Below are positions 2,514-19,119 of a stretch of 19,119 nucleotides of DNA, in pieces. This DNA comes from a virus. Numbering within the stretch: the stretch's first letter is position 1; every line of letters starts with the position of its first letter. Both the position numbers and the translations under genes were made by a program. A model generated the notes under the pieces. The model did no database searches. It was not told the origin of the DNA and saw nothing but the letters and a program-made list of their open reading frames with translations. The DNA lies in UHGV virus genome UHGV-0349885; one strand, given 5' to 3'.

Positions 2514-2683
2514 TATGCAATCATTATCTTTCATTGCCGTTTCTTTTTGTGTTTCTTCTTATTCAATAAGTTGCGGTTTCTTCAATTGTGTGCATTGTTC
2601 CTTTTTTTTCGCTTTTTTATCGCCAGTATTCTGGCAAAAGGAACCAGCGCATGGACTAGAAAAATTTGTATTGGAGTGCTTGT

Positions 2684-3916: not shown

Positions 3917-3922
3917 GGCAAT

Positions 3923-4132
3923 ATGAGCACTAACGGCAATATTCTATTTACCAAAGACGTGATGGCAGAGCTTCGCTACGGTGCAATGAGTGCGTTTTAC
4001 GCTTTCATGAACGATGAAAAAAATAAATTTCCACGCCCCTTTAAGATTGGGCGACGCAACGCATGGCATCGTGATGATGTTGCATCGTGGCTGGAAAGAC
4101 AACGAAAACAAGCTAATGAATATCGTCAATGA
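3923..4132 (+). CDS. alpA: AlpA/Xis-family small DNA-binding protein (putative excisionase / transcriptional regulator)
   Basis: 69 aa, immediately after int, GAGG Shine-Dalgarno; sequence FTKDVMAELRYGAMSAFYAFMNDEKNKFPRPFKIGRRNAWHRDDVASWLE fits the AlpA/Vis/Xis HTH pattern; followed by a terminator. Confidence 0.7.
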   Translation: MSTNGNILFTKDVMAELRYGAMSAFYAFMNDEKNKFPRPFKIGRRNAWHRDDVASWLERQRKQANEYRQ

Positions 4133-4140
4133 TTGATATA

Positions 4141-4164
4141 CCCCGCGCAATGCGGGGTTTTTTG
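4141..4164 (+). terminator. Rho-independent terminator after alpA
   Basis: Hairpin CCCCGC-gcaat-GCGGGG (4141-4157) followed by TTTTTT. Confidence 0.7.
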
Positions 4165-4178
4165 TATATGAGGTAAAA

Positions 4179-4760
4179 ATGATGAATAAAAATATTGCCG
4201 TGACGGGCAAGGGTGACGCACGTCATGTGAAAAAAGTCTGTGATATTCGTGATCTGGTCGTTCTGCGCTTTGATGGCGTGAGCGTTCGCGTGGTGTATCT
4301 GAACGGCGATCCGTGGTTTGTTGCAAAGGATGTCTGCGCTGCGCTGGAACTGACCAATTCGCGTACGGCGTTGCAGATGCTTGATGATGATGAAAAGGGA
4401 GTAAATTTAACTTACACCCCCGGAGGAAATCAGAATATGAGCATTATCTCTGAGTCAGGTTTCTACAAACTAATAGTCCGCAGCCGCAAAGCAACGACGC
4501 CTGGCACATTTGCTCATCGTTTTAGTAACTGGGTATTCAGAAATGTGATACCGGGTATCAGAAAAACGGGGGCTTATGGTATCCCGTGGGGTGCATTACA
4601 GGATTTTTCCCGCCGCAAAGAGCAATATCAGATAAGTGCCAGCGAGAAGGGGAGGGCGCTACAGGCATGTAAGCGCAAAAAACGTGAACTGGAGGAAGAA
4701 GAAAAAAGGCTGATACGTGAATATCAGCCTGAGTTTTACTTTGGTGAGCGTATTCAGTAA
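4179..4760 (+). CDS. BRO-N / KilA-N domain protein (phage antirepressor-like)
   Basis: 193 aa; N-terminal region LRFDGVSVRVVYLNGDPWFVAKDVCAALELTNSRTALQMLDDDEKG ... IRKTGAY matches the conserved BRO-N antirepressor motif; GAGG SD; charged coiled-coil-like C-terminus. Confidence 0.75.
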   Translation: MMNKNIAVTGKGDARHVKKVCDIRDLVVLRFDGVSVRVVYLNGDPWFVAKDVCAALELTNSRTALQMLDDDEKGVNLTYTPGGNQNMSIISESGFYKLIVRSRKATTPGTFAHRFSNWVFRNVIPGIRKTGAYGIPWGALQDFSRRKEQYQISASEKGRALQACKRKKRELEEEEKRLIREYQPEFYFGERIQ

Positions 4761-5040
4761 CCACACGCGGTGCTGATTATACGGTACATCGTGTTAACCG
4801 AGAAGCTACCCACCAGCAAGGCAAAATCTTCTGCTAAAAAATGACATATGACCAGTCGTCCAGAAAGCATGAAATTTTACAAAAATGGAAAATGAAGATT
4901 TTTATTGTGCTAGTGGGTAAAAACAAAAAGCGCCCCGTTGCCGGAGCGCCCTTGCGAACAATTAACCTGCTGCGAAAAAATTGGATCAGTGCAAGGAAAT
5001 TATATCAACTGTGTGAAGAAGCGCCACAATTGCCGGATAA

Positions 5041-5073
5041 CAGGCAAAGAAAAGGCCACCTGTCACGGTGGCC
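5041..5073 (-). terminator. Minus-strand rho-independent terminator
   Basis: Perfect 7-bp stem GGCCACC/GGTGGCC (5054-5060 / 5067-5073) with 6-nt loop; on the minus strand it is followed by TTTTCTTTG; it lies downstream of the minus-strand regulator gene. Confidence 0.5.
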
Positions 5074-5392
5074 CTTCAACACAAATTGCGCGTTATCCCC
5101 AACGCATGAGCATCGCCAACAATGCCATATTTGCGGCTGGTGGGCAAAGCCTGAGCGATCCTGTGATTACAGGAACTACGGCATTGTCTCGGTTAGGTAG
5201 TGCTCAACTTTTTTTCAACTCTACATCGCAAGCACGCCGTAATAAATCGCCCTTATCGTTTGAGCAAAGACTATTTTTCTCAAAGCATGATATTAAGAGA
5301 AAGATTGTGATAATTAAAGCAACCATCATTGGTACATGTTTTTTTAATTTTAACATCTTTTACTCCTATGATTATCGCCATCGTTCTTCATG

Positions 5393-5590
5393 TTATGACG
5401 TGATTAATGATTTCTCGGATTCACTGGCCTTGCGCCGCTGGCGATATTCAACTTCTCGTTTTAATGCCGCAGTAACAAATTGCCCCGTACTTTCGCCAGG
5501 CATTTTTACCGCCTCAACATTGTTCATAACTTCATGCGGAACCCTTGCCGCAACGGTTTGTGATTTTGCGTTTACTGCTTTTGTCGCCAT
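5393..5590 (-). CDS. Small putative DNA-binding regulator (candidate repressor of the element; possibly ribbon-helix-helix-like)
   Basis: 65 aa, ATG at 5590 with GAGGGG SD; divergently oriented from the operator/promoter cluster at 5641-5692. Fold assignment is by eye only. Confidence 0.5.
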   Translation of the reverse strand: MATKAVNAKSQTVAARVPHEVMNNVEAVKMPGESTGQFVTAALKREVEYRQRRKASESEKSLITS

Positions 5591-5640
5591 GTGGTGTACC
5601 CCTCATAAAAAACAAATGCAGTATGCAGGAAAAAAAATAA

Positions 5641-5692
5641 GTGTTCAACACTTGACGTGTTTAACACCTGGGTTTAAATTGGTGTTCAACAC
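5641..5692. promoter_or_regulatory. Divergent promoter/operator region: three palindromic operators GTGTTCAACAC (5641-5651), GTGTTTAACAC (5657-5667), GTGTTCAACAC (5682-5692) overlapping a rightward sigma70-like promoter (-35 TTGACG 5652-5657, 17-bp spacer, -10 TAAATT 5675-5680)
   Basis: Three copies of an 11-bp perfect palindrome GTGTT-N-AACAC seen directly; they sit between the minus-strand regulator gene and the plus-strand early operon. Confidence 0.6.
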
Positions 5693-5789
5693 CTTGTTGG
5701 CGCAAGGTGCAGAAACGACGAAACCCGGCAGTGCGCTAACACTAACCGGGCTTCTAACCACCAACGATAGCGAAAGTATCGAGGCAGCT

Positions 5790-5993
5790 ATGAGAAATCA
5801 TACCACACACCCGCAAGGGCGGGACTCGCACGACCTGAATAAATACATCTGGCGTTTTATCGCCCTGAGCACGGCACAACCGCGCGTGATTACCATCGAG
5901 GCCACCAGCGAACAGGAAGCGCGTCAGCAATCTCCGGCTGGCTGCGTGATGGTATTCGCTGCCCGTATTCGCCAGGGGTCACATCATGCGTAA
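5790..5993 (+). CDS. Small early protein, Icd-like (P4 host cell-division inhibitor family) by motif
   Basis: ATG 5790 with GAGG SD 5 nt upstream; 67 aa; motif YIWRFIALS...RVITIEATSEQEARQQ...VFAARIRQG recalled as characteristic of Icd-like proteins of P4-type elements. Family assignment from memory only. Confidence 0.5.
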   Translation: MRNHTTHPQGRDSHDLNKYIWRFIALSTAQPRVITIEATSEQEARQQSPAGCVMVFAARIRQGSHHA

Positions 5994-6447
5994 AAACCGC
6001 TTGCAAAAAATTATCACGGGGCTGTATGCTTCCCCCGTCGCCCACATGGCGACCGGGTTTGACAGCCTGAATACATCTGGCGGACAGCCGCCCACATCCG
6101 ATAAGCGGTTTTTTTGTGTCCGTAAACCTACCCATACCCGCATTATGGCGGGGCGTAACGGGGGAGCCTTTGTGCTCGCTGGTTTCCAGATGACCAGTCT
6201 GTCAACCCTGTTACGTCTCGCCACCATGTTTGACAGCGTAGTAGCGAGACTCCTTAAAATTCATCTGGGAGCCTTTCACATGGCTGTATCCGCACGCCCT
6301 TATTTTGTCTGGCGCTTTATGCAGTGCCTGACAGACAGCATTGCAATATTCACCGTTACCGCTGCCACTGAGCGCGAAGCACGTGCACAGCTGCCGCACG
6401 CACATCTGATTTTTGTCGCCCGTATTCGTCAGGGGGTAGGCTTATGA
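5986..6447 (+). CDS. Icd/Ash-like paralog (153 aa) carrying the same C-terminal motif
   Basis: Start overlaps the previous stop; C-terminus YFVWRFMQCLTDSIAIFTVTAATEREARAQLPHAHLIFVARIRQG is a clear paralog of the 5790-5993 product. Confidence 0.5.
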   Translation: MRKNRLQKIITGLYASPVAHMATGFDSLNTSGGQPPTSDKRFFCVRKPTHTRIMAGRNGGAFVLAGFQMTSLSTLLRLATMFDSVVARLLKIHLGAFHMAVSARPYFVWRFMQCLTDSIAIFTVTAATEREARAQLPHAHLIFVARIRQGVGL

Positions 6448-6677
6448 GTCAGGAAATCACACTACAACAGGCAGCAGAACGCGCCCACCAAATCGAAGTT
6501 ATTTGCGCACTGGCAGAGGATTACCCTGGCATGATGACCGACAGCGAATCAGGGGCAATCATCGGCTTACTTAAACGCCTTAGCGGTGAGGTCTGCGTAT
6601 TCCTGAGCGATGAACAGGAAAGAAGAACGCTTATTTCTAACGAAAAAAAATGCGGAGGGGTACACCATGTGCAATAA
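6444..6677 (+). CDS. Hypothetical small protein (77 aa), translationally coupled in early operon
   Basis: ATG overlaps the preceding stop (ATGA); GGGGG SD upstream; no recognisable family. Confidence 0.5.
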   Translation: MSQEITLQQAAERAHQIEVICALAEDYPGMMTDSESGAIIGLLKRLSGEVCVFLSDEQERRTLISNEKKCGGVHHVQ

Positions 6678-6888
6678 CATCCGTCCGGACGCAGCAGCCG
6701 CCGCGCTCACTACGCTGATGCACGCGCTTATCGATATTGAATGCACTGCAGAGCTTGCGCAGGGAGAAGAACAGAAAGACCGGACACAGTTCGCCCTGGA
6801 ATGTATCCGATACATCGCAACGCGGTCGCTGAATGAAGCTAAAAATATTCTTGTTGCTGATTGTGAAAATGGGGGGGGTTATGCGTGA
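6667..6888 (+). CDS. Hypothetical small protein (73 aa from ATG 6667; ORF track offers an upstream start at 6610)
   Basis: Strong SD GGAGGGG 7 nt upstream of ATG 6667; stop overlaps the next start in the 8-mer ATGCGTGA. Confidence 0.45.
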   Translation: MCNNIRPDAAAAALTTLMHALIDIECTAELAQGEEQKDRTQFALECIRYIATRSLNEAKNILVADCENGGGYA

Positions 6889-7114
6889 TGATCGTTTTAA
6901 TTCCCTGAAACAGGAATTTTCCGGCGTTCCTGATGATGCGGCTGATGCGCTTTCGTCAATGCCAGAACTTATTAGAGCGGCTTTTTTCTTACTTTCCACG
7001 AGAGAATATAAATCAACGGGGCTTGATGTACTGAATATCGCCGCCGATTATGCGGAATATGTGGCAGAGGCGCGTTATAGAAGAAAATTTCCTGAGGATG
7101 TAAGCCATGCGTGA
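6881..7114 (+). CDS. Hypothetical small protein (77 aa, MRDDRFNSLKQEF...)
   Basis: ATG 6881 inside the overlap 8-mer ATGCGTGA; acidic and helical; no recognisable family. Confidence 0.45.
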   Translation: MRDDRFNSLKQEFSGVPDDAADALSSMPELIRAAFFLLSTREYKSTGLDVLNIAADYAEYVAEARYRRKFPEDVSHA

Positions 7115-7268
7115 TATTTACCACGAAACAATAGACCGCGCATTTCTTGCACTTTCTCACAGTGAAAACATGCTGGAAATATTGCGCATATGGCTTGAAA
7201 CACTTGGCGACAATGAACGCGACAAACAAAAAATCAAGAATTGCCACGGCATTAATAACGCTTCTTGA
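7107..7268 (+). CDS. Hypothetical small protein (53 aa, MRDIYHETIDRAFLALSHSENMLEILRIWLETLGDNERDKQKIKNCHGINNAS)
   Basis: ATG 7107 again inside an ATGCGTGA overlap with the preceding stop (7112-7114); translated by hand; competes with ORF-track 7147-7341, which needs a TTG start. Confidence 0.3.
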   Translation: MRDIYHETIDRAFLALSHSENMLEILRIWLETLGDNERDKQKIKNCHGINNAS

Positions 7269-7346
7269 GCCTGTAATAATGGAACTGCAAGAAATAGATC
7301 TATTGCACGACAGATATAAAGAACAGCACACCGGAGAATAAAAATA

Positions 7347-7646
7347 ATGAAACTTAAATATTCTGGCTTAACTGCCAGTGGCAACACTCACCCTAAATTT
7401 ACGCGCGGCGATATTTACCGCGACCAGTACGGCGGCACGGTAATGATTAAGGGCGTGGAAGAACGGCGCGTAACCTACCGCCGTGAAGGTTACGAATATG
7501 ATTGCGTGATGCCTGTTTATCAGTTCCGGCGTGATTTTTCTCTGGTACAGACCGCGCCGCATAACGTGTCCACCAGCAACGCCAGGGCACGGGCAAACAT
7601 CCAGAAGCTGAAAACCATGATTAACGGATTCAGGGGTAAAAAATGA
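7347..7646 (+). CDS. Hypothetical protein (99 aa) immediately upstream of and coupled to the primase gene
   Basis: ATG 7347 with GGAG upstream; stop overlaps the primase ATG (ATGA); no recognisable family. Confidence 0.5.
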   Translation: MKLKYSGLTASGNTHPKFTRGDIYRDQYGGTVMIKGVEERRVTYRREGYEYDCVMPVYQFRRDFSLVQTAPHNVSTSNARARANIQKLKTMINGFRGKK

Positions 7647-9397
7647 AACTGGCACCGAACGTAAAACAGCAGTCACGCGGCATAAAACACAAAGAAACAG
7701 AAGTCATTATTTTTGCGGGTAGTGATGCCTGGTCACACGCAAAACAATGGCAGGAACATGACGCGCGTATGGCCGGAGATAATGAGCCTCCTGTGTGGCT
7801 TGGGGAGCAGCAGTTATCCGAACTGGATAAGCTGCAAATTGTGCCGGAAGGCAGAAAATCCGTGCGCATATTCAGGGCCGGATATCTTGCGCCAGTAATG
7901 ATAAAGGCGATTGGTCAGAAGCTGGCGGCGGCAGGCGTACAGGATGCAAATTTTTACCCTGATGGTATGCACGGTCAGAAGGTGGAGAACTGGCGCGAAT
8001 ATCTGGCCCGTGAGCGCCAGAATCTTTCTGATGGTCTGGTCATTGAGCTTCCGGTAAAGCAAAAGGCGCAACTTTCGCAGATGGCGGACAGTGAGCGCGC
8101 GCAGCTGCTTGCCGATCGCTTTGATGGCGTTTGCGTACATCCTGAAAGTGAAATCGTTCACGTATGGCGCGGCGGGGTATGGTGTCCGGTCAGCACAATG
8201 GAACTTAGCCGCGAAATGGTGGCGATCTATTCAGAGCACAGGGCCACTTTCAGCAAGCGCGTAATCAATAACGCCGTGGAAGCGTTAAAAGTTATTGCCG
8301 AACCAATGGGCGAGCCGTCCGGCGATTTGTTGCCGTTCGCCAATGGTGCGCTTGACCTGAAAACGGGGGAATTTTCCCCGCACACGCCGGAGAACTGGAT
8401 CACCACGCACAACGGCATTGAGTACACGCCACCAGCACCAGGGGAGAACATCCGCGATAACGCGCCAAACTTTCATAAATGGCTTGAGCACGCAGCCGGA
8501 AAAGACCCGCGCAAGATGATGCGTATATGTGCCGCGCTGTACATGATTATGGCGAACCGGTACGACTGGCAGATGTTTATTGAGGCCACCGGAGACGGCG
8601 GGAGCGGTAAAAGTACATTCACACACATAGCCAGCCTTCTGGCAGGGAAACAGAACACGGTAAGCGCTGAAATGACATCGCTTGATGATGCTGGTGGACG
8701 TGCGCAGGTTGTCGGGAGTCGTCTTATCGTCCTGGCTGACCAGCCGAAATATACAGGCGAAGGAACGGGCATCAAGAAAATCACGGGCGGTGACCCCGTG
8801 GAAATTAACCCGAAATACGAAAAGCGTTTCACGGCGGTAATCAGGGCGGTGGTGCTGGCGACCAACAATAACCCGATGATATTCACCGAACGGGCCGGAG
8901 GTGTGGCACGTCGTCGCGTGATTTTCCGTTTCGACAATATCGTCAGTGAGGCCGAAAAAGACAGGGAGCTACCGGAAAAGATCGCGGCTGAAATCCCTGT
9001 CATTATCCGCCGATTGCTGGCGAACTTTACCGACCCTGAGAAGGCACGGGCTTTACTACTGGAACAGCGTGACGGTGATGAAGCTCTGGCAATAAAGCAA
9101 CAGACGGATCCGGTTATTGAGTTTTGCCAGTTCCTGAATTTTCTGGAGGAAGCGCGCGGCCTGATGATGGGGGGCGGTGGCGATTCAGTGAAGTACACGA
9201 CCAGGAACAGCCTTTACCGCGTCTATCTGGCGTTTATGGCATACGCAGGCAGGAGCAAACCGCTAAACGTAAATGACTTTGGCAAGGCTATGAAGCCAGC
9301 CGCGAAAGTTTACGGACATGAATATATTACGCGGAAAGTTAAGGGAGTAACGCAGACTAACGCAATAACAACAGACGATTGCGACGCGTTTTTATAA
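7643..9397 (+). CDS. Replication initiator: DNA primase / SF3-type NTPase (P4-alpha / D5 family C-terminal domain)
   Basis: 584 aa; Walker A EATGDGGSGKSTF, then RLIVLADQPKY and KKITGGDPVEINPKYEKRFTAVIRAVVLATNNNPMIF typical of the phage/plasmid primase P4-family C-terminal domain; the iteron origin lies directly downstream. Confidence 0.85.
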   Translation: MKLAPNVKQQSRGIKHKETEVIIFAGSDAWSHAKQWQEHDARMAGDNEPPVWLGEQQLSELDKLQIVPEGRKSVRIFRAGYLAPVMIKAIGQKLAAAGVQDANFYPDGMHGQKVENWREYLARERQNLSDGLVIELPVKQKAQLSQMADSERAQLLADRFDGVCVHPESEIVHVWRGGVWCPVSTMELSREMVAIYSEHRATFSKRVINNAVEALKVIAEPMGEPSGDLLPFANGALDLKTGEFSPHTPENWITTHNGIEYTPPAPGENIRDNAPNFHKWLEHAAGKDPRKMMRICAALYMIMANRYDWQMFIEATGDGGSGKSTFTHIASLLAGKQNTVSAEMTSLDDAGGRAQVVGSRLIVLADQPKYTGEGTGIKKITGGDPVEINPKYEKRFTAVIRAVVLATNNNPMIFTERAGGVARRRVIFRFDNIVSEAEKDRELPEKIAAEIPVIIRRLLANFTDPEKARALLLEQRDGDEALAIKQQTDPVIEFCQFLNFLEEARGLMMGGGGDSVKYTTRNSLYRVYLAFMAYAGRSKPLNVNDFGKAMKPAAKVYGHEYITRKVKGVTQTNAITTDDCDAFL

Positions 9398-9410
9398 TTT
9401 TTTGCAATGG

Positions 9411-9640
9411 CTGTCTACCCTGTCTACCTGAGTAAAGAAAAATACATTTAATTCAGTATATTAACTTAGGTAGACAGCCTTTTTTCACTGTCTACCTACT
9501 ATCTACCCTCTCTACCTGATTTTACCTGAATCAGACAGGGAGGTAGATACGGGGTAGATAGTGGATAAAAGCACTCTACCCCGCTGAAAGCCGCGCCATT
9601 ACTGGCATGAGAGCCAGTAAGGTAGATAAGGTAGACAAGG
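9411..9640. repeat. Iteron-type replication origin: about 11 copies of TCTACC / GGTAGA (6 forward, 5 reverse) in AT-rich context
   Basis: Forward copies at 9414, 9423, 9491, 9502, 9511, 9575; reverse copies at 9469, 9542, 9553, 9621, 9630; immediately 3' of the primase gene, the usual ori position in PICI/SaPI-like elements. Confidence 0.75.
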
Positions 9641-9685
9641 GGAGGCACAACTCAAAACTTTTTAAACGAGGGGGTAAAAATAAAA

Positions 9686-9943
9686 ATGCGCACATCAGGA
9701 AAACTTAATAATCAGAAGAAGCAGCATAACCGCGCCATTGACCTTACAGAGCACTGGCTGAGAGTGGCGATAAAAATCATCGACCGCAACACGGGGGAAG
9801 GATACGCGAAAGCACATCCCGACCTGATAAGCGCATTCATGACCACGGCGGCGGCAAACTTTGCCACGCTGACAGAACGGGAGATTGCCGAAGCGGAACA
9901 GGTAACAACCATCAACGTTAAAACCGGAGAGGTGGAATCATGA
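9686..9943 (+). CDS. Hypothetical protein (85 aa)
   Basis: ATG 9686 with GAGGGGG SD; stop overlaps the SSB-like start; no recognisable family. Confidence 0.5.
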   Translation: MRTSGKLNNQKKQHNRAIDLTEHWLRVAIKIIDRNTGEGYAKAHPDLISAFMTTAAANFATLTEREIAEAEQVTTINVKTGEVES

Positions 9944-10362
9944 CAGCACAGATAGCAGCTTACGGGCGGCTGGTGGACGACCCGCAGGTAAAACAGACCA
10001 GCAAGGGCACACCAATGACGCTGGCACGTATGGCGGTATCGTTGCCATGTAGTCAGGCGCAGGATGGGCAGGCTACGTTATGGCTATCGGTGATGGCATT
10101 TGGCAGACAGGCCGAAGCACTGGAAAGGCACCGCAAGGGTGAACTCCTGAGCGTGGCGGGTAACATGCAGATCAGCCAGTGGACTGGGCAGAACGGAGAA
10201 ACGCGGCAGGGCTGGCAGGTTATCGCAGACAGTGTAATCAGTGCGCGAACGGCGCGACTGGGCGGCAAAAAAGGTCAACTGGGCCAGGCTACTGACGCGC
10301 TGAACAGGGCAAAACAACAGGCGGGGAATGATGATCCGTACGGGGATAACATACCGTTTTAA
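9940..10362 (+). CDS. ssb: Single-stranded DNA-binding protein (SSB-like)
   Basis: 140 aa; OB-fold-like N-terminal region aligns by eye with E. coli SSB (LVDDPQVKQTSKGTPMTLARMAVS / LWLSVMAFGRQAEALERHRKGELLSVAGNMQISQWT); C-terminal acidic tail ends DDPYGDNIPF, like the SSB DDDIPF tail. Confidence 0.8.
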   Translation: MTAQIAAYGRLVDDPQVKQTSKGTPMTLARMAVSLPCSQAQDGQATLWLSVMAFGRQAEALERHRKGELLSVAGNMQISQWTGQNGETRQGWQVIADSVISARTARLGGKKGQLGQATDALNRAKQQAGNDDPYGDNIPF

Positions 10363-10377
10363 GCGACGAGTGACAGA

Positions 10378-10400
10378 AGCCGGAGCAATCCGGCTTTTTT
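10378..10400 (+). terminator. Rho-independent terminator after ssb
   Basis: Stem GCCGGA/TCCGGC (10379-10384 / 10389-10394), loop GCAA, T-run 10395-10400. Confidence 0.65.
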
Positions 10401-10448
10401 ACGGGTCCTCCTGGCGGGGTGGGCCTGAACACGGGGCGGGAGGCGCGG
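10401..10448 (+). other. Degenerate cos-like remnant (cosQ-like ACGGGTCCTCCTGG ... ACGGGGCGGGAGGCGCGG) lacking an intact cosN 12-mer
   Basis: Aligns with the cosQ/cosN region of the three intact cos sites, but GGGCGGCGACCT is replaced by GGGCGGGAGGCG; preceded by the same terminator-then-cosQ arrangement as at 12818-12857. Confidence 0.4.
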
Positions 10449-10580
10449 AAAAAAGCGCATTTTTGTGATTTTATCGTCATCATCATCATGAGCGTAATTT
10501 ATTGTTTTTAATTGTTTTGATGCAAAAAAGATGATGGTTGTGGTTAATTTTTGTTCGACATCTTTGCAGGCAGATAAAAA

Positions 10581-10616
10581 AGCCCGATAAGGTCAGAGGT
10601 GGCTTATCGGGCTTTT
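10581..10616. terminator. Strong hairpin with flanking A- and T-runs (possible bidirectional terminator)
   Basis: Perfect 11-bp stem AGCCCGATAAG/CTTATCGGGCT (10581-10591 / 10603-10613), preceded by AAAAAA and followed by TTTT. Confidence 0.5.
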
Positions 10617-10692
10617 GCATATGAGGCTTTTTGGTGCACTGACACACATGATCGGGATAATCATTTCATAATTTGCAACACAACTCAATATC

Positions 10693-10742
10693 ATTGCACA
10701 AAATGCAATACTGATTATAATCAGAGCTGGATGAACATCCAG
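10693..10742 (+). promoter_or_regulatory. Candidate promoter of the element capsid operon with three palindromes: ATTGCA-N5-TGCAAT (10693-10709), TGATTATAATCA (10713-10724), CTGGATG-AA-CATCCAG (10727-10742); -35 TTGCAC 10694-10699, -10 TATAAT 10716-10721
   Basis: Consensus -10 with 16-bp spacer seen directly; palindromes overlap the -35, -10 and +1 regions; AAGAGGAA SD and ATG 10778 follow. Confidence 0.4.
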
Positions 10743-10777
10743 TTATGATTTTTTAAGTCAAAGAGGAATTTCTTACT

Positions 10778-10984
10778 ATGGCTGAAGAGAAAAAAGGCGG
10801 TGTTTCGGTGTACATAAGCCCCGACATCGTAAAGGCGCTCAAGGAACGCCACCAGCAGAACGTAAAAGCAGGCATTGCGGCAGGACTTGATCCGCTGGCG
10901 ATGGTTGAGCCGTCAACAGGCTGGCAGGTACGCGCCTATTTACGCGCGGCGCTGGGTATGAATCAGGTTCACGGGGGTGAATAA
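10778..10984 (+). CDS. Hypothetical small protein (68 aa), first gene of the element capsid module
   Basis: ATG 10778 with AAGAGGAA SD; stop overlaps the capsid-gene start (TAATG); no recognisable family. Confidence 0.5.
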   Translation: MAEEKKGGVSVYISPDIVKALKERHQQNVKAGIAAGLDPLAMVEPSTGWQVRAYLRAALGMNQVHGGE

Positions 10985-12039
10985 TGACAGGCAAAGCAAC
11001 GGCACTTAACACTAACCAGCTTTTCATGTACCTGAATCGCGGGGATATTGCGGATTTTAAATTCAACCCTCTGTTTACTACGCTGTTTTTCCCGAACGTG
11101 GCGACATTCAGCACGCAAAACATCATGCTGGATACCCTGGACATTGAAGAAGTCACCATGTCGGCGTTTTGTTCGCCTATGGTTGGCAGCCAGGTACAGC
11201 GCGATAAAGGGTACGAAACCAGCACAATTAAACCTGGCTACATGAAGCCAAAGCACGAAATCGATCCAACAAAAACCATCATGCGCATGGCTGGAGAAGA
11301 TCCGGCACAGCTTAACGACCCTACCTACCGCCGTATGCGCCTGATTACTGGCAACATGCGCCGCCAGGTAAACGCCATTAAAGCGCGCGTGGAATGGCTG
11401 GCGGTGAATGCGATAACGACCGGAAAAAACATCATTGAGGGCGAAGGCATAGAACGCTATGAAATCGACTGGAAAATACCGGAAAACTGCATCATAGAGC
11501 AGGCCAAGGGTAAAAAATGGTCCGAGCAGGATAAAGACATGCACGACCCAATCTATGACATCGAGCTTTATGCTGATCAGGCTGGTTGCCCCGCAAACGT
11601 CATGATTATGGGCGCTGAGGTATGGCGCACGTTACGCAGCTTTAAAAAATTCCGTGAGCTGTACGATCTTTCCCGTGGTTCAGAGTCCGCCGCCGAACTG
11701 GCCTGTAAAAACCTGGGCGAAGTGGTGAGCTTTAAAGGCTATCTGGGCGATATTGCCCTTATCGTCTATTCCGGCAAATACACTGACAGCGACGGCACAG
11801 AAAAATATTTCCTTGAGCCTGATTTGCTGGTTCTGGGCAACACCAACAATAAAGGGCTGGTGGCCTATGGTGCGATTATGGATCAGGACGCAGTAAGAAC
11901 GGGCGCAACGCAAAACATGTTTTACCCGAAAAACTGGATTGGGGACGGCGATCCGGCGATTGAGTACGTGCAGACGCACAGCGCACCGCAGCCGGTTCCG
12001 GCAGATATTCGTAAATTTGTTACCGTCAAAATTGGTTAA
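10984..12039 (+). CDS. Major capsid protein homolog (lambda gpE-like), element-encoded and diverged from the prophage copy
   Basis: 351 aa; matches lambda gpE (from memory) at FKFNPLFTTLFF (lambda FKFDPLFLRLFF), PGYMKPKHEIDP (PGYVKPKHEVNP) and C-terminal YPKNW..GDPA...SAP; N-terminus differs from the prophage gpE start at 19064. Confidence 0.85.
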   Translation: MTGKATALNTNQLFMYLNRGDIADFKFNPLFTTLFFPNVATFSTQNIMLDTLDIEEVTMSAFCSPMVGSQVQRDKGYETSTIKPGYMKPKHEIDPTKTIMRMAGEDPAQLNDPTYRRMRLITGNMRRQVNAIKARVEWLAVNAITTGKNIIEGEGIERYEIDWKIPENCIIEQAKGKKWSEQDKDMHDPIYDIELYADQAGCPANVMIMGAEVWRTLRSFKKFRELYDLSRGSESAAELACKNLGEVVSFKGYLGDIALIVYSGKYTDSDGTEKYFLEPDLLVLGNTNNKGLVAYGAIMDQDAVRTGATQNMFYPKNWIGDGDPAIEYVQTHSAPQPVPADIRKFVTVKIG

Positions 12040-12050
12040 CGGGGGATTCT

Positions 12051-12386
12051 ATGGACACTCCATACATTGAGTTATTTGCAGGCAGTCAGCAGGTCGCCAC
12101 GACGCTGGTACATTTTGCCGCTGATGCTGGCGTTATTCAGGAATTTACCCCGCTGATGCTGGCGGACAATGGCGAGTTTAAGCCGTGGGATGGTAAGGAA
12201 TCTGGCAAGGCTGTTTATCTGACCTCGTACCCTGTGGACACGTCAAAGCAGAAATCAGCACAGTGTTACAAGACGGGGATATTCAATATTGCCGCCGTTA
12301 ACTGGCCTGAGAGCGTCGACACCGATGCGAAAAAATGCGCCGCCTTTGCGGGTTCTGGCGTATCCGTTCAGCCGCTGGCCCGATAA
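12051..12386 (+). CDS. Head decoration protein homolog (lambda gpD-like), element-encoded
   Basis: 111 aa; shares TPLML..WDG..YKTGxF..WPES..KK.AAFAGS with lambda gpD and with the prophage gpD at 18659-19006. Confidence 0.75.
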   Translation: MDTPYIELFAGSQQVATTLVHFAADAGVIQEFTPLMLADNGEFKPWDGKESGKAVYLTSYPVDTSKQKSAQCYKTGIFNIAAVNWPESVDTDAKKCAAFAGSGVSVQPLAR

Positions 12387-12398
12387 GCAGGGGGAACG

Positions 12399-12812
12399 AT
12401 GGCAACGAATGAAAGCATCATGACGCTACCGCTGGCGAGTAAATTTAAAGCCGAAGCGCGGGCAATGGCTGACAGAGGTTTATCAACCTATGAGGCCGTA
12501 TATCAACTAAACAAACTGGAAGAGCAGGACAAGCCGCGCGCTGATGCGATTATGGCGCTTGATGAATCTGGCGACTATCAGCCGCTGTTACGTGCAATGG
12601 CAAACGTGCCTTGTATCGATGTTGGTACGGCTAAAAGCATCCTTAGCATGACCATAGAGCAGGAACGTCCGAAGGTTGCGCCGGAACTTACTGCAGCCTT
12701 TGAAAACTTTATGGACATGCACAGCCCGCAAGCCGTATCAGCTGGCATGGCATACGATGGCAGAAACCAGGGCGATGACGGCGACATCGATCGCATACTG
12801 AAAACCATCTGA
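12399..12812 (+). CDS. Scaffold-like protein (Nu3 / gpC C-terminal-domain homolog), element-encoded; candidate capsid-size-redirecting scaffold
   Basis: 137 aa; C-terminus TAAFENFMDMHSPQAVSAGMAYDGRNQGDDGD parallels the prophage gpC-Nu3 C-terminus TALFEHFMANHSPAAVRGGVSQTSADGDAD; middle region resembles one of the internal repeats of the prophage protein. Confidence 0.6.
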   Translation: MATNESIMTLPLASKFKAEARAMADRGLSTYEAVYQLNKLEEQDKPRADAIMALDESGDYQPLLRAMANVPCIDVGTAKSILSMTIEQERPKVAPELTAAFENFMDMHSPQAVSAGMAYDGRNQGDDGDIDRILKTI

Positions 12813-12817
12813 GACAA

Positions 12818-12842
12818 GGCCGGAGAAATCCGGCTTTTTTTT
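12818..12842 (+). terminator. Rho-independent terminator after the element capsid module
   Basis: Stem GCCGGA/TCCGGC (12819-12824 / 12829-12834), loop GAAA, eight-T run 12835-12842. Confidence 0.65.
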
Positions 12843-12966
12843 ATGGGTCCTTTCCGGCATATGGACCCGTTACGGGGCGGCGACCTCGCGGGTTTTCGCT
12901 ATTTATGACGTTTTTCCGTGAAGGTGACACCACCACCACTTGATTAATATTTAACCATGCGGTTAA
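12843..12966 (+). other. Element cos site A (forward): cosQ-like GGGTCCTTTCCGG 12845-12857, cosN GGGCGGCGACCT 12875-12886, I2-like CGCGGGTTTTCGCTATTTATGA, divergent cosB with TTAACC-atgc-GGTTAA
   Basis: About 75-bp core near-identical to the prophage cos and to lambda cos; flanking cosB differs from the prophage cosB; lies directly upstream of the Nu1-like gene at 12976. Confidence 0.85.
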
Positions 12967-12975
12967 GGTAACATT

Positions 12976-13416
12976 ATGATTGATAAAGCTTGTTTTGTAA
13001 GTCAGCAGGAAATAGCTGAACATTTCAAGGTTAACAGAACCACTATTCGCGCATGGACCAAACAGGGGATGCCGTATCTTAATGCGGATCGCGGAAAGTC
13101 TGGCGGTTATCACATCGGGCATACATTGCTTTGGTCTTCAGGTAAAAGCCGTCTTGAGGCCATCAGATATCACGTAGAAACCAGTGCGCTGGAAAAAATT
13201 ATGTTTGCCAGGCTGCTTTCATCTGAGCGTGACGAGTACTCCAGTGAAGAAACAGAACATCGATTTGATGAAGGTTTGCAGATTTACGGCTATTCACCGG
13301 AAGATGTGAGCAAGGCACGAAATAAAATGGCTGGCTTTCTGGCTGGGTGGCGTCATGCCGTAAGCGTTCGCCGTGCCAGCATGGAACAATCAGTCGTTAC
13401 AGAACAGCAAAGTTAA
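12976..13416 (+). CDS. Terminase-small-subunit-like protein (Nu1 N-terminal wHTH homolog with unrelated C-terminus); candidate packaging-redirection factor
   Basis: 146 aa; N-terminus VSQQEIAEHFKVNRTTIRAWTKQGMPYLNADRGKSGG aligns with prophage Nu1 [34 protein letters not shown]; positioned just 3' of cos-A, as Nu1 is relative to cos. Confidence 0.7.
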   Translation: MIDKACFVSQQEIAEHFKVNRTTIRAWTKQGMPYLNADRGKSGGYHIGHTLLWSSGKSRLEAIRYHVETSALEKIMFARLLSSERDEYSSEETEHRFDEGLQIYGYSPEDVSKARNKMAGFLAGWRHAVSVRRASMEQSVVTEQQS

Positions 13417-13445
13417 AAATCACTTTCTGTTACGCCATCAAATAC

Positions 13446-13597
13446 GCAATACAACAACCACGTATTTTTTTAAAACTATTTGATTCAATTAGCATTTTTT
13501 TATTTTTAGCATCAAAAAAACACTATCAGGTTGTTGTATTGCTCTTTATTTTTACTTAGTTATCAAATGGATATGACAAACAATTAAACAACAACCT
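13446..13597. repeat. Perfect 14-bp inverted repeat GCAATACAACAACC (13446-13459) / GGTTGTTGTATTGC (13529-13542) around a 69-bp AT-rich spacer, plus a third ACAACAACC copy (13589-13597); candidate cosB R-elements of cos-B
   Basis: Repeats read directly from the sequence; they occupy the cosB side of the inverted cos-B in an R3 / AT-rich / R2 / R1-like layout. Confidence 0.5.
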
Positions 13598-13610
13598 CCC
13601 TCTAAAAAAG

Positions 13611-13680
13611 CTCATAAATAGCGAAAAACCGCGAGGTCGCCGCCCCGTAACGGGCCATAATTCCAGGAAGGACCCGACGA
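13611..13680 (-). other. Element cos site B (inverted orientation): cosN reverse-complement AGGTCGCCGCCC at 13634-13645, I2-like 13611-13633, cosQ-like GGAAGGACCC 13666-13675
   Basis: Reverse complement matches the cosQ-cosN-I2 core of cos-A and the prophage cos almost base for base. Confidence 0.8.
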
Positions 13681-13709
13681 CACCAGACTATCAGAGCGAT
13701 GGGGGCACA

Positions 13710-13991
13710 ATGACAGAAGCCGAACTACTGGGATTAATCCGCCGCGTTACCGGAATCAGCCAGCAGCATGACGAACAGGCCACACAGCCGGACAGCGTGA
13801 CAGCCGAAAATTACGCGCGTGTTGTTGCTGAGGTGATGCGCCGTGATGGTATCCAGCTTAATGATATGGATATGCGCAACATACGGATCCGCGTTCTTGA
13901 AATGCTGGCCTACAATCGCCGCGTGGCACTGTATCGTGAAACGGAGAAAATTACGTACCACTGGAAGAAGCCGGAGCGGTTACGGCGTTAA
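13710..13991 (+). CDS. Hypothetical protein (93 aa)
   Basis: ATG 13710; no recognisable family; followed immediately by the GTGAC repeat array. Confidence 0.45.
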   Translation: MTEAELLGLIRRVTGISQQHDEQATQPDSVTAENYARVVAEVMRRDGIQLNDMDMRNIRIRVLEMLAYNRRVALYRETEKITYHWKKPERLRR

Positions 13992-13997
13992 CTTGTG

Positions 13998-14041
13998 GTG
14001 ACATACCGTGACGGGAGTGACAACCAGTGACACACAGTGAC
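13998..14041. repeat. Array of five GTGAC(A) direct repeats at 9-10 bp spacing (starts 13998, 14008, 14017, 14027, 14037)
   Basis: Seen directly; helical phasing suggests same-face binding of one protein; the reverse complement TGTCACT resembles the lambda Int arm-type consensus (AGTCACTAT, from memory). Confidence 0.5.
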
Positions 14042-14391
14042 AAAAAAAGACGGTATTTAAATAGGGTGGGTGTTTAATACCCTAGGGGGATCGGAATCCC
14101 TACACCCCATTGCTTATGAGACCGCATTCCCCGTCAAATTTTTACACCCGCGAAATTAAAAAAATGCGTCACGCTGGTGGGTGTGATGCTGATATGGGGA
14201 TTTCCATAACCGAGATTAAGCAAAGAGCAAACTTGCCCCCTGTAGCCAAACATAGTAACCATCTAAGCCCCTTTTTTATCTTAATTTAGCTGATTTTTCC
14301 GTGTTTATACGGACTAGAATTTGTACCAAACGCAAAAGCGATGTCTTCTTTATTCCTTTAAATTCAATTTATTATCTTGCTTGTTTGCTTT

Positions 14392-14402
14392 CATATCTGG
14401 AC
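14392..14402 (+). repeat. attR core: right copy of 11-bp direct repeat CATATCTGGAC
   Basis: Identical to 2503-2513; terminase homology resumes exactly here (HIWTAYSPFTTWVQIV). Confidence 0.75.
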
Positions 14403-15348: not shown

Positions 15349-15538
15349 ACTACAGGCGCTACGTCAGGCGCGCCTTGATTTATTAACCGGTAAACGGGTG
15401 GTGTCTGTCCAGAAAGATGGTCGCAGAATTGAATATACGGCGGCTTCTCTGGATGAGCTTAACCGGGCGATCAATGATGCGGAGTCGGTACTGGGGACAA
15501 CCCGACGTCGCCGTCGTCCGCTGGGAGTGAGGTTATGA
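15332..15538 (+). CDS. W: Head-tail joining protein, lambda gpW-like
   Basis: 68 aa; LLTGKRVVSVQKDGRRIEYTAASL ... RRRRRP matches lambda gpW ([24 protein letters not shown] ... QRRRGP, from memory). Confidence 0.85.
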   Translation: MVTVAELQALRQARLDLLTGKRVVSVQKDGRRIEYTAASLDELNRAINDAESVLGTTRRRRRPLGVRL

Positions 15539-18658: not shown

Positions 18659-19006
18659 ATGGTGACGAAAACCATCACTGAACAGCGTGCGGAAGTACGT
18701 ATTTTTGCCGGTAATGATCCGGCTCATACCGCCACAGGCAGCAGCGGGATTTCTTCTGCAACACCGGCTCTGACGCCCCTGATGCTGGATGAAGCCACCG
18801 GGAAACTGGTGGTCTGGGATGGACAGAAAGCCGGTAGTGCGGTTGGCATACTGGTACTGCCGCTTGAAGGCACAGAGACGGTGCTGACCTATTACAAGTC
18901 GGGGACCTTTGCGACGGAGGCAATCCGCTGGCCTGACAGTGTGGATGAACACAAAAAGGCAAATGCCTTTGCCGGCACAGCCCTGAGTCACGCGGCTCTG
19001 CCGTAA
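18659..19006 (+). CDS. D: Head decoration protein, lambda gpD-like
   Basis: 115 aa; DPAHTATGSSG...TPLMLDEATGKLVVWDG...GILVLP...YYKSGTFATEAIRWPDS...KKANAFAGTA closely follows lambda gpD (from memory); GAGG SD upstream. Confidence 0.85.
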   Translation: MVTKTITEQRAEVRIFAGNDPAHTATGSSGISSATPALTPLMLDEATGKLVVWDGQKAGSAVGILVLPLEGTETVLTYYKSGTFATEAIRWPDSVDEHKKANAFAGTALSHAALP

Positions 19007-19063: not shown

Positions 19064-19119
19064 ATGGGATTGTTTACGACCCGCCAGTTACTCGGTTATA
19101 CCGAACAAAAAGTGAAATT
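19064..19119 (+). CDS. E: Major capsid protein, lambda gpE-like (5' end only; continues beyond window)
   Basis: ATG 19064 with AAGGAA SD; MGLFTTRQLLGYTEQKVK parallels lambda gpE N-terminus MSMYTTAQLLAANEQKFKF; truncated by the window end. Confidence 0.7.
   Translation, partial: MGLFTTRQLLGYTEQKVK

What the first reader, a model, noticed from the sequence alone, without database searches (positions are those of the whole stretch)
10778..12812. Satellite encodes its own diverged capsid (gpE-like), decoration (gpD-like) and scaffold (Nu3-like) proteins but no portal, protease or TerL
The element has paralogs of three head-shell components that are clearly homologous to, but diverged from, the helper's copies (helper D at 18659, E at 19064, scaffold domain in C/Nu3). 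Their order (small ORF, E-like, D-like, scaffold-like) differs from lambda's D-then-E. An 11.9-kb genome cannot fill a lambda-size T=7 head as a monomer, so these may assemble or re-template a smaller shell on the helper portal and protease. Known systems redirect size with scaffold-like proteins (P4 Sid, SaPI CpmAB) or carry a full capsid module (cf-PICIs); a shell-only paralog set would be intermediate.
Basis: partly seen in the sequence, partly recalled or inferred. Interest (0 to 1): 0.8.

Follow-up and report, generated by a model that had tools for sequence, protein, structure and literature searches.

The report
Satellite's own capsid-shell gene set
A small phage-parasitic island in E. 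coli carries its own diverged coat, cement and mini-scaffold genes; these genes are real, conserved and mostly already published (island EcCICFT073), and experiments show they are dispensable for transfer in the laboratory, so their role is still unknown.

Summary
Four coupled genes (10778-12812) encode a 68-aa protein, a lambda gpE-type coat (45% identical to the helper's E), a gpD-type decoration protein (35%) and a 137-aa homologue of the C-terminal scaffold domain of gpC/Nu3. The 11,889-bp satellite has no TerL, portal or protease.

This is not new. The element is a near-copy of EcCICFT073, the model Gram-negative PICI (c1498-c1501; D' and the 137-aa gene identical, E' 95%, RppA 99%). Here it sits inside the terL gene of a lambdoid prophage, the known "helper-embedded PICI" configuration. 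The coat has a crystal structure (PDB 3BQW).

Published work found no PICI-sized DNA band. Deleting c1499 or c1500 had no effect, and an island with c1498-c1501 replaced by cas9 still transferred.

My additions:
- The E'/D' pair is an old, satellite-only lineage. It is always ordered E'-then-D', lies under purifying selection and occurs in 11% of complete E. coli genomes.
- c1501 is Nu3-like.
- No published test used a size-neutral island with the module intact.

The small-capsid idea is disfavoured but not excluded. The function remains open.

The parts
2503..14402 (+). The whole satellite: an 11,889-bp EcCICFT073-type PICI between 11-bp att cores (CATATCTGGAC), inserted in and co-oriented with the helper prophage's terL
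   Evidence: att cores read. The TerL N-terminal part aligns to lambda gpA residues 18-331. The TerL C-terminal ORF contains the GpA_nuclease domain.
10620..10777 (+). AT-rich leader upstream of the capsid operon, holding a promoter-like site (10665-10694) and a small hairpin (10725-10744). It follows two terminator-like hairpins after ssb. The promoter is putative only.
   Evidence: Sequence and consensus scan. The number of consensus matches is no more than chance for the region.
10778..10984 (+). orf68 (= c1498): a satellite-specific 68-aa protein, translationally coupled to E'. Function unknown.
10984..12039 (+). E' (= c1499): a lambda gpE-type HK97-fold major capsid protein of the satellite lineage
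   Evidence: Pfam PF03864, E 1.7e-50. 45% identical to helper E, 43% to lambda E and 95% to CFT073 c1499. Matches PDB 3BQW at E 6e-230. dN/dS 0.06-0.20.
12051..12386 (+). D' (= c1500): a gpD/SHP-type head decoration (cement) protein
   Evidence: Pfam PF02924, E 2.5e-17. 35% identical to helper D and 36% to lambda D. Matches PDB 1TD0 at 5.6e-13. dN/dS 0.085-0.30.
12399..12812 (+). Nu3' (= c1501): a free-standing homologue of the C-terminal scaffold domain of gpC/Nu3. It has two degenerate IMxLxEA...MTVxxAR repeats, a TxxFExFMxxHSP motif and an acidic/hydrophobic C-terminal helix.
   Evidence: The AF2 model is all-helical, with pLDDT above 80 for residues 1-90 and a less confident C-terminal third. 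dN/dS 0.21-0.40.
12816..12845 (+). Intrinsic terminator closing the four-gene unit. It is 95% identical to the terminator after ssb (10379-10400).
12838..12915 (+). Satellite cos copy, 82% identical to the helper cos at 786-863 and containing GGGCGGCGACCT. It lies immediately downstream of the module.
12976..13416 (+). RppA (= c1503): the protein that redirects the helper's small terminase to the satellite cos. It accounts for the packaging redirection and interference that the capsid module was proposed to explain.
   Evidence: 142 of 144 residues identical to CFT073 c1503. Function from PMC6739421.
17117..18622 (+). Helper gpC (S49 protease plus a Nu3-type scaffold C-terminus with three repeats). 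This is the comparator for Nu3'.
18659..19006 (+). Helper gpD
   Evidence: Pfam HDPD, E 5.7e-25.
19064..19119 (+). Start of helper gpE, cut off by the end of the window

Best explanation
The four genes form the conserved 'capsid morphogenesis' operon of a classical Gram-negative PICI. The island is an EcCICFT073 near-copy, here embedded in the terL gene of its presumed lambdoid helper.

The operon encodes a self-matched shell kit of an old satellite-only lineage: a coat protein E', its cement D' and, in E. coli lineages, a mini-scaffold Nu3' made of only the C-terminal domain shared by Nu3 and gpC.

Most likely mechanism (inferred, not shown): late in helper growth, E' polymerises with Nu3' into its own lattice on the helper's portal. 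The helper protease and terminase act on that shell, with the terminase redirected to the satellite cos by RppA. D' then cements the expanded, DNA-filled shell, and helper tails are attached.

These shells would be an extra, satellite-made supply of heads, probably phage-sized (T=7) and filled with multimers of the island (about 4 x 11.9 kb). They would be redundant with helper heads under laboratory conditions. This would explain why deleting the genes has no measured phenotype even though the genes are kept by selection.

Shown here: homologies, gene order, absence of other head genes, lineage structure and purifying selection. Inferred: assembly into a separate lattice, its size, and use of the helper portal and protease.
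For: A matched triad:
- E', D' and Nu3' are each homologous to the helper's E, D and gpC/Nu3 C-terminus, but only 45%, 35% and 36% identical.
- A decoration protein and a scaffold domain are needed only if E' forms a lattice of its own that expands and holds DNA. This follows from established lambda biology: gpD binds expanded shells, and Nu3 interacts with E, B and C (PMC3224144).

Lineage:
- Satellite E' proteins are 50-95% identical to each other across Escherichia, Salmonella, Edwardsiella and Serratia, but only 38-47% identical to phage E.
- D' shows the same two-group split, and E and D identities co-vary (r = 0.90).
- No phage among 50,697 records has an E' closer than 60%.
- Every homologue at 49% identity or above lies in an int-alpA-primase island in the order E'-D'. 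The 43% homologue lies in a full lambdoid head module in the order D-E.

Selection: dN/dS is 0.06-0.20 for E', 0.085-0.30 for D' and 0.21-0.40 for Nu3'. All four ORFs are intact in 7 loci. The module is present in 598 of 5426 complete E. coli genomes.

No sign of altered geometry: E' is collinear with E, with 5 gap positions in 343 columns.

Phage-sized packaging: 4 x 11,889 = 47.6 kb against lambda's 48.5 kb. Published work reports phage-length packaging and no monomer band (PMC6092414).

Operon structure: coupled starts, the operon's own terminator, and cos directly downstream.
Against: - No particle has ever been shown to contain E', D' or Nu3'.
- Deleting c1499 or c1500 changed neither transfer by the native CFT073 prophage nor lambda interference (PMC6092414).
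- An island with c1499 replaced by cat transfers at up to 10^6 per ml with phage 80.
- An island with c1498-c1501 replaced by cas9 is still transduced (PMC10530653).
- Interference with lambda is accounted for by RppA alone (PMC6739421).
- E' would have to work with a portal and protease that co-evolved with an E only 45% identical.
- Nu3' is missing from the Salmonella and Edwardsiella islands and is replaced by an AlpA-domain gene in others. A dedicated scaffold is therefore not essential to whatever E'/D' do.
- The promoter and the timing of expression are not established.
Confidence: 0.4

Rival explanations
1. One reading: the kit builds or re-templates a smaller (T=4-like) shell on the helper's portal, sized for one 11.9-kb genome and excluding the helper genome.
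For: - Another Gram-negative PICI with a coat homologue (PmCI172) does make small heads (PMC6092414).
- Nu3' is a truncated scaffold with fewer repeats than the helper's. This is formally like SaPI CpmB, which shares its C-terminus with the helper scaffold (my own knowledge of Dearborn et al. 2017).
- Gaps in the published tests. The strain table lists lambda and phage-80 lysogens only with the c1499::cat island, which has no E'. The tetA island has the module intact but is enlarged; its primers map the insertion directly after the c1501 stop at 12812. No size-neutral island with an intact module was tested.
Against: - With an intact module in CFT073, no PICI-monomer band appeared.
- Packaged DNA was reported as phage-sized.
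- Using the T=4/T=7 DNA ratio of about 0.35 seen in P2/P4 and 80alpha/SaPI1 (my own knowledge), a T=4 lambda-type shell would hold about 17 kb. The 11.9-kb monomer would fill about 70% of it, and the tetA island would have fitted, yet neither was seen as a monomer band.
- A conserved D' argues for fully filled heads.
- E' shows no indels relative to E.
Confidence: 0.15
2. The proteins act on the helper's own capsid assembly. E' would co-assemble with helper E (as Ccm does in SaPIbov5), or Nu3' would compete with gpC/Nu3 for the coat (CpmB-like). The effect would be to interfere with particular helpers or non-helper lambdoid phages.
For: - The best-conserved stretch between Nu3' and the embedding helper's gpC is the TxxFExFMxxHSPxAV motif, so Nu3' could bind helper E.
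- PICIs generally interfere with their helpers.
Against: - Deleting c1499 or c1500 did not relieve lambda interference.
- Deleting rppA restored lambda plaque formation, with titres nearly equal to those on the island-free host.
- A co-assembling minor coat would not need its own cement protein.
- E' shows no closer similarity to the E of its own embedding helper (47%) than to other phage E proteins (43-45%).
Confidence: 0.15
3. The module has no role in particle formation. It would be either a dispensable 'adaptable module' kept by hitch-hiking, or serve an unrelated host or satellite function.
For: - Every published knock-out is without phenotype.
- The module has been used as a cargo slot (PMC10530653).
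- The third gene is variable.
- The module is bracketed by near-identical terminators, which suggests cassette exchange.
Against: - dN/dS is well below 1 for all four genes.
- Full-length E'/D' pairs are retained down to about 50% identity across several genera.
- The module is present in 11% of complete E. coli genomes.
- Hitch-hiking does not preserve reading frames over that much divergence.
Confidence: 0.2
4. The genes are the remnant of a second, decayed prophage head module, not part of a satellite.
For: The genes are phage-type, and RefSeq and PDB call them prophage proteins.
Against: - The genes lie inside an 11,889-bp unit with its own att cores, integrase, alpA, primase, ori iterons, cos and rppA.
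- The same architecture recurs in all relatives.
- The order E'-D' is never found in the phage modules examined.
- The genes are under purifying selection.
- A 96.8% identical element is an experimentally mobilised PICI (PMC6092414).
Confidence: 0.02

Closest known systems
EcCICFT073 (E. coli CFT073), the model Gram-negative PICI; genes c1498-c1501 and rppA (c1503)
   Same: The module is 96.8% identical in nucleotide sequence. c1500 and c1501 are identical in sequence. c1499 is 95% identical and RppA 99%. Gene order, the cos position and the terminator are the same.
   Different: This copy has a different integrase and att site. It lies inside a prophage terL gene, whereas the CFT073 copy lies between roxA and phoQ. 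It also lacks the PerC-family gene found upstream of c1498 in CFT073.
Helper-embedded PICIs (HE-PICIs; PMC10111431)
   Same: [quoted passage not shown] That paper notes that capsid genes are the commonest late gene in Gram-negative PICIs (21 of 29 reference islands).
   Different: The paper's model element, 11capE, sits in gene E. It does not analyse a decoration or scaffold homologue ('decoration' and 'scaffold' each occur 0 times in its text).
Capsid-forming PICIs (cf-PICIs, e.g. EcCIEDL933)
   Same: Both are satellites that encode their own major capsid protein and share int/alpA/rep-type left halves with classical PICIs.
   Different: cf-PICIs also encode TerS, TerL, HNH, portal, protease and head-tail connectors, and demonstrably make their own small heads. 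None of these genes is present here. Published trees separate PICI and cf-PICI capsid genes almost perfectly (PMC10085698).
SaPIbov5 Ccm and SaPI1 CpmB (capsid size redirection by a coat homologue or by an alternative internal scaffold)
   Same: Each is a satellite-encoded homologue of a helper shell component. Nu3' resembles CpmB in being a short helical protein related to the C-terminus of the helper scaffold.
   Different: Ccm and CpmB act on the helper's coat protein and give small heads. Here a whole coat/cement/scaffold set is present, and no small heads or monomer-length DNA have been seen.
Lambda head genes C/Nu3-D-E (and phage 21 genes 5/6, shp, 7)
   Same: The protein families are the same (PF03864, PF02924, Nu3 C-terminal domain). 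The E' structure 3BQW has served as a molecular-replacement model for a distantly related phage major capsid protein (YSD1; PMC7385642).
   Different: The gene order is inverted (E'-D'-Nu3' against Nu3-D-E). The scaffold is reduced to 137 aa and detached from the protease. A satellite-only 68-aa gene is coupled in front. Identity to phage copies is 35-47%.

Membership tests
Gram-negative PICI (EcCICFT073 type) | Integrase at the left end, followed by an alpA-type regulator, with the genes co-oriented | tested here: met
   The integrase has Arm-DNA-bind_3 and Phage_integrase domains. The 69-aa regulator hits Phage_AlpA at E 5e-4 with 20.3 bits, just under the 21-bit cut-off. RefSeq annotates it as an HTH regulator.
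Gram-negative PICI (EcCICFT073 type) | Own primase/replicase with an adjacent iteron origin | tested here: met
   The primase has D5_N, DUF5906 and Pox_D5 domains (7643-9397). CTGTCTACC iterons lie at 9411-9517. Origin function was not tested.
Gram-negative PICI (EcCICFT073 type) | Small size (about 10-15 kb) with no tail, lysis, portal or large-terminase genes | tested here: met
   11,889 bp. tblastn with head proteins finds only E, D and the gpC C-terminus. The RefSeq annotation lists no tail or lysis gene within the island.
Gram-negative PICI (EcCICFT073 type) | Packaging hijack by a helper-type cos site plus Rpp (or a TerS homologue) | tested here: met
   A cos copy at 12838-12915 is 82% identical to the helper cos. 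RppA is 99% identical to c1503.
Gram-negative PICI (EcCICFT073 type) | Induction, replication and high-frequency transfer that depend on a helper phage | not testable with these tools
   Shown experimentally for EcCICFT073, whose capsid module is 96.8% identical (PMC6092414). Not shown for this copy or its embedding prophage.
Helper-embedded PICI (HE-PICI) | [quoted passage not shown] | tested here: met
   terL is split at the FHIWT codons. The N-terminal part is 72% identical to lambda gpA residues 18-331. The C-terminal part carries the GpA_nuclease domain. RefSeq marks both halves as partial.
Capsid-forming PICI (cf-PICI) | Encodes TerL, portal, prohead protease and head-tail connectors in addition to the coat protein | tested here: not met
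   No similarity to lambda or helper A, B, C protease domain, W or FII anywhere in 2520-14390.
Capsid-forming PICI (cf-PICI) | Particles whose heads are made of satellite-encoded proteins | not testable with these tools
   No proteomic or EM data exist for this module. Published knock-outs show it is not required for transfer.
Capsid size-redirection systems (Sid, CpmAB, Ccm, TcaP) | Production of small heads and monomer-length packaged DNA that depends on the satellite gene | not testable with these tools
   Published results for EcCICFT073 are negative: no monomer band, and phage-sized DNA. They were obtained with enlarged or E'-less islands.
Lambda gpE major capsid protein family (PF03864, HK97 fold) | Full-length match above the Pfam gathering score, and a solved HK97-like structure for the protein | tested here: met
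   172.4 bits against a cut-off of 22.9. PDB 3BQW matches at E 6e-230 over residues 1-350, and lambda gpE 7VI9 at 2.1e-81.
Lambda gpD / phage 21 SHP decoration family (PF02924) | Match above the gathering score across the domain | tested here: met
   63.5 bits against a cut-off of 29.1. PDB 1TD0 matches at 5.6e-13 and 1C5E at 3.5e-9.
gpC/Nu3 scaffold C-terminal domain | Sequence homology to the C-terminal ~85-135 residues shared by lambda-type gpC and Nu3 | tested here: met
   BLASTP to helper gpC residues 416-493, E 1e-10. Lambda Nu3 hits orf137's family at 2.7e-26, and helper gpC covers it fully at 1.6e-68. tblastn hits fall in annotated Nu3/scaffold genes. Direct BLASTP to lambda Nu3 finds nothing.
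gpC/Nu3 scaffold C-terminal domain | Scaffold activity: binding the coat protein and being removed before DNA packaging | not testable with these tools
   The only support is an all-helical AF2 model. No solved Nu3 structure exists for comparison.
Phage head-tail connector (the NCBI name for orf137 relatives) | Similarity to a connector or adaptor family (gpW, FII, gp6-like) | tested here: not met
   No Pfam or NCBIfam hit. No similarity to helper or lambda W or FII. The name most likely derives from the old term 'head-tail preconnector' used for phage 21 gp5/gp6 and Nu3.

The most novel reading that the evidence does not exclude
Classical cos-type PICIs of enterobacteria would be 'shell-only capsid formers'. 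With a natural helper and an island of native size, E', D' and Nu3' would build satellite-made heads (possibly smaller ones) on the helper's portal. This would be a true intermediate between size-redirecting satellites and cf-PICIs. It would have been missed because every tested island was either enlarged (tetA) or lacked E' (cat or cas9 replacements).
Probability: 0.15. Interest if true: 0.75.

Novelty: already known. Interest (0 to 1): 0.35.

Why it matters
About one in nine complete E. coli genomes, including CFT073, Nissle 1917 and O157:H7 strains, carries this module. Related pairs occur in Salmonella, Edwardsiella and Serratia. Even so, the role of the capsid genes of classical Gram-negative PICIs has no experimental answer.

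Three results sharpen the open question and point to one clean experiment:
- The module is a selected, satellite-only coat/cement/scaffold triad.
- c1501 is a Nu3-type scaffold domain.
- The published negative tests never used a native-size island with the module intact.

If satellite-made shells exist, PICIs and cf-PICIs would form a continuum of capsid autonomy. PICI-based delivery vehicles, which use this module as a cargo slot, might be discarding a functional part. If no such shells exist, the finding stays an ordinary, already described feature.

Tried and rejected
- A peptide-pattern scan of one genome per species for E' relatives returned nothing usable. I used protein look-ups and their contigs instead.
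- Direct BLASTP of orf137 against lambda Nu3 gave no alignment. Homology was established through profiles and the helper's longer gpC.
- A whole-library phmmer search with orf137 added only a few informative relatives: P0132, and a 195-aa stand-alone Nu3-like protein, P0133.
- No Nu3 structure exists in the PDB.
- I first suspected that the published 'c1501::tetA' marker disrupted the scaffold gene and so masked all phenotypes. Mapping the primers showed the cassette sits immediately after the stop codon at 12812, so c1501 is intact. I rejected that idea.
- What survives is narrower. The tetA island is enlarged, and the only lambda and phage-80 lysogens in the strain list carry the c1499::cat island.
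- I considered the NCBI name 'head-tail connector protein' and rejected it.
- I considered recent capture from the helper as a 'backup copy' and rejected it. E'/D' are about equally distant (38-47% and 29-47%) from all phage copies examined, including those of embedding helpers.
Full report
**What is in the window**

The window matches E. coli AREA_492 at 100% over the finding. It shows a lambdoid prophage late region, with these genes:
- Nu1 at 1011-1559
- W at 15332
- the portal at 15535-17127
- the S49 protease/scaffold gpC at 17117-18622
- D at 18659-19006
- the start of E at 19064

The prophage's terL gene is split by an 11,889-bp insert. The N-terminal part aligns to lambda gpA residues 18-331. 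The C-terminal ORF carries the GpA nuclease domain. An 11-bp core, CATATCTGGAC, is present at both junctions, at 2503-2513 and 14392-14402.

The insert has the full layout of a Gram-negative PICI:
- an integrase, an AlpA-like regulator and a Bro-N protein
- a D5-type primase followed by CTGTCTACC iterons, then SSB
- the four genes of the finding
- a cos copy (12838-12915, 82% identical to the helper cos at 786-863)
- an RppA homologue

- orf68 lies at 10778-10984.
- E' lies at 10984-12039 (Phage_cap_E, E 1.7e-50).
- D' lies at 12051-12386 (HDPD, E 2.5e-17).
- orf137 lies at 12399-12812.

The genes are tightly packed. The orf68 stop overlaps the E' start, and a strong terminator at 12816-12845 closes the unit.

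Against the prophage's own proteins:
- E' is 45% identical (2e-104).
- D' is 35% identical (3e-16).
- orf137 residues 49-131 are 36% identical to residues 416-493 of gpC (1e-10).

**The scaffold claim needed profiles**

BLASTP against lambda Nu3 finds nothing. Profile searches do:
- Lambda Nu3 residues 117-200 hit orf137's PHROG family (phrog_1999, 'unknown function') at 2.7e-26.
- The helper's gpC residues 365-501 cover that family end to end at 1.6e-68.
- orf137 hits the C-terminal end of the protease-scaffold family phrog_53.
- tblastn places orf137 on the 3' end of genes annotated Nu3 or scaffolding protein in 19 phage-21-like and lambda-like phages.

The alignment shows two degenerate IMxLxEA...MTVxxAR repeats, a TxxFExFMxxHSP motif and an acidic/hydrophobic C-terminal helix. 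The AF2 model is all-helical.

A six-frame search of the insert with all lambda and helper head proteins finds only these three similarities. It finds no TerL, portal, protease domain, W, FI or FII.

**It is a known element**

The module is 96.8% identical to CFT073. There it lies in EcCICFT073, the model Gram-negative PICI. Compared with that island:
- D' and orf137 are identical in sequence to c1500 and c1501.
- E' is 95% identical to c1499.
- RppA is 99% identical to c1503.

The ISME J 2018 paper names c1499 a putative capsid protein and c1500 a head decoration protein. It lists c1501 (137 aa) without a function (PMC6092414). 'Capsid morphogenesis' is treated as a core PICI component (PMC10085698). 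The coat protein has a crystal structure, PDB 3BQW (E 6e-230). Insertion of such islands into prophage late genes, including gene A, is the published HE-PICI configuration (PMC10111431).

**What the published experiments say**

- In CFT073 the tetA-marked island amplified, but 'no PICI monomer band appeared'.
- Packaged DNA from a lambda lysogen was all phage-sized.
- Deleting c1499 or c1500 changed neither transfer by the native prophage nor lambda interference.
- Interference maps to c1503, RppA (PMC6739421).
- A synthetic island with c1498-c1501 replaced by cas9 was still packaged and delivered by phage 80 lacking its cos site (PMC10530653).

The module is therefore dispensable for transfer in the laboratory.

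I checked the constructs themselves. The tetA primers map the cassette directly after the c1501 stop at 12812, so the module is intact but the island is enlarged. The only lambda and phage-80 lysogens in the strain table carry the c1499::cat island, which has no E'. No test used a native-size island with the module intact.

**What I add: lineage and selection**

- No phage among 50,697 records has an E' closer than 60%.
- Protein relatives of E' from 95% down to about 49% identity all lie in int-alpA-primase islands in E. coli, Salmonella, Edwardsiella and Serratia. The order is always E' then D', and no portal, protease or TerL belongs to the island.
- A 43% relative lies in a complete lambdoid head module ordered D then E.
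- In an all-against-all comparison, satellite E' proteins share 50-95% identity and phage E proteins share 59-86%. The two groups share only 38-47%. D'/D behave the same way, and E and D identities co-vary (r = 0.90; the pairs are not independent).
- E' is no closer to the E of its own embedding helper than to other phage E proteins.
- Among close E. coli copies, dN/dS is 0.06-0.20 for E', 0.085-0.30 for D', 0.21-0.40 for orf137 and about 0.1-0.4 for orf68. One orf68 pair with only 7 substitutions gives 0.76. All reading frames are intact.
- The module occurs in 598 of 5426 complete E. coli genomes.

It is therefore neither a decaying prophage remnant nor a recent capture from the helper.

The third gene varies between islands. 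It is Nu3-like in E. coli lineages, an AlpA-domain protein in others, and absent from the Salmonella and Edwardsiella islands examined. orf68 is satellite-specific: it has no hit in the phage records and no informative fold match.

**How it most likely works**

A coat protein that travels with its own cement protein and, here, its own scaffold domain points to a lattice made of E', not to a minor subunit slipped into the helper's lattice. gpD-type proteins bind only expanded shells and matter when the head is full. Nu3 is the lambda scaffold and interacts with E, B and C (PMC3224144).

I therefore favour satellite-made shells that assemble on the helper's portal, use the helper's protease, terminase (redirected by RppA) and tails, and are probably phage-sized. 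The reasons for phage size are:
- E' is collinear with E.
- Four island copies make 47.6 kb.
- No monomer-length DNA has been seen.

Such shells would be redundant with helper heads in the laboratory, which fits the silent knock-outs. This is an inference, with confidence 0.4.

The rivals are:
- action on the helper's own assembly (0.15)
- no role in particle formation (0.2)
- a decayed prophage module (0.02)

**Verdict**

The published descriptions I could read leave that gene without a function, RefSeq calls it hypothetical or 'head-tail connector protein', and PHROGs lists it as unknown. The old term 'head-tail preconnector' for Nu3 probably explains the connector name.

Its framing as a new intermediate class overstates the case. 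The element and its coat and decoration genes are published, the coat structure is solved, and the deletion experiment has been done. The function remains an open and testable question.

Noticed in passing
window 2503-2513 and 14392-14402 (terL halves 1489-2513 and 14392-15348): The satellite is inserted in, and co-oriented with, the helper prophage's large-terminase gene at the FHIWT codons, with an 11-bp att core. The helper cannot make TerL until the island excises. This is the published HE-PICI arrangement.
   Followed up: partly
window 12838-12915 vs 786-863: A 78-nt cos copy containing GGGCGGCGACCT, 82% identical to the helper cos. It lies about 25 bp after the capsid operon and before rppA, so the capsid genes would sit at one end of the packaged DNA.
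   Followed up: partly
window 10379-10400 and 12819-12840: Two terminators that are 95% identical (GCCGGAG[C/A]AATCCGGCTTTTTT) bracket the capsid module and its variable upstream region. This looks like the boundaries of an exchangeable cassette. CFT073 has a PerC-family gene in the upstream region, which this copy lacks.
   Followed up: no
window 9411-9517: Three CTGTCTACC-type iterons lie just downstream of the primase gene. They are probably the satellite replication origin.
   Followed up: no
L013:2292-9812 (Salmonella enterica contig AAEGCM010000006.1): A PICI with a lambda-type E'/D' pair is embedded in the tail-gene cluster of a P2-like prophage, whose coat protein belongs to a different family. 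If that prophage is the helper, E' could not be co-assembling with the helper's coat.
   Followed up: no
P0030 (463 aa): One relative is a single ORF carrying both the Phage_cap_E and HDPD domains, an apparent E'-D' fusion or read-through.
   Followed up: no
window 6610-7114: Two overlapping ORFs (6610-6888 and 6833-7114) correspond to a gene that RefSeq marks as frameshifted in the near-identical AREA_492 record. The window and that record differ by 1-2 bp of indels in this stretch.
   Followed up: no
PMC6092414 supplement (strain table and Table S6) mapped onto window 12753-12812: The 'c1501::tetA' marker used in most EcCICFT073 work sits immediately after the c1501 stop, between the gene and its terminator and cos. 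The lambda and phage-80 lysogens listed all carry the c1499::cat island. The published capsid-size and transfer tests therefore never used a native-size island with E' intact.
   Followed up: yes
L015:1-9394 (Edwardsiella tarda) and L007:1919-11783 (E. coli metagenome scaffold): Further helper-embedded islands with E'/D' pairs. One is inserted in a portal gene and one in gene E. Neither has a Nu3-like third gene.
   Followed up: partly
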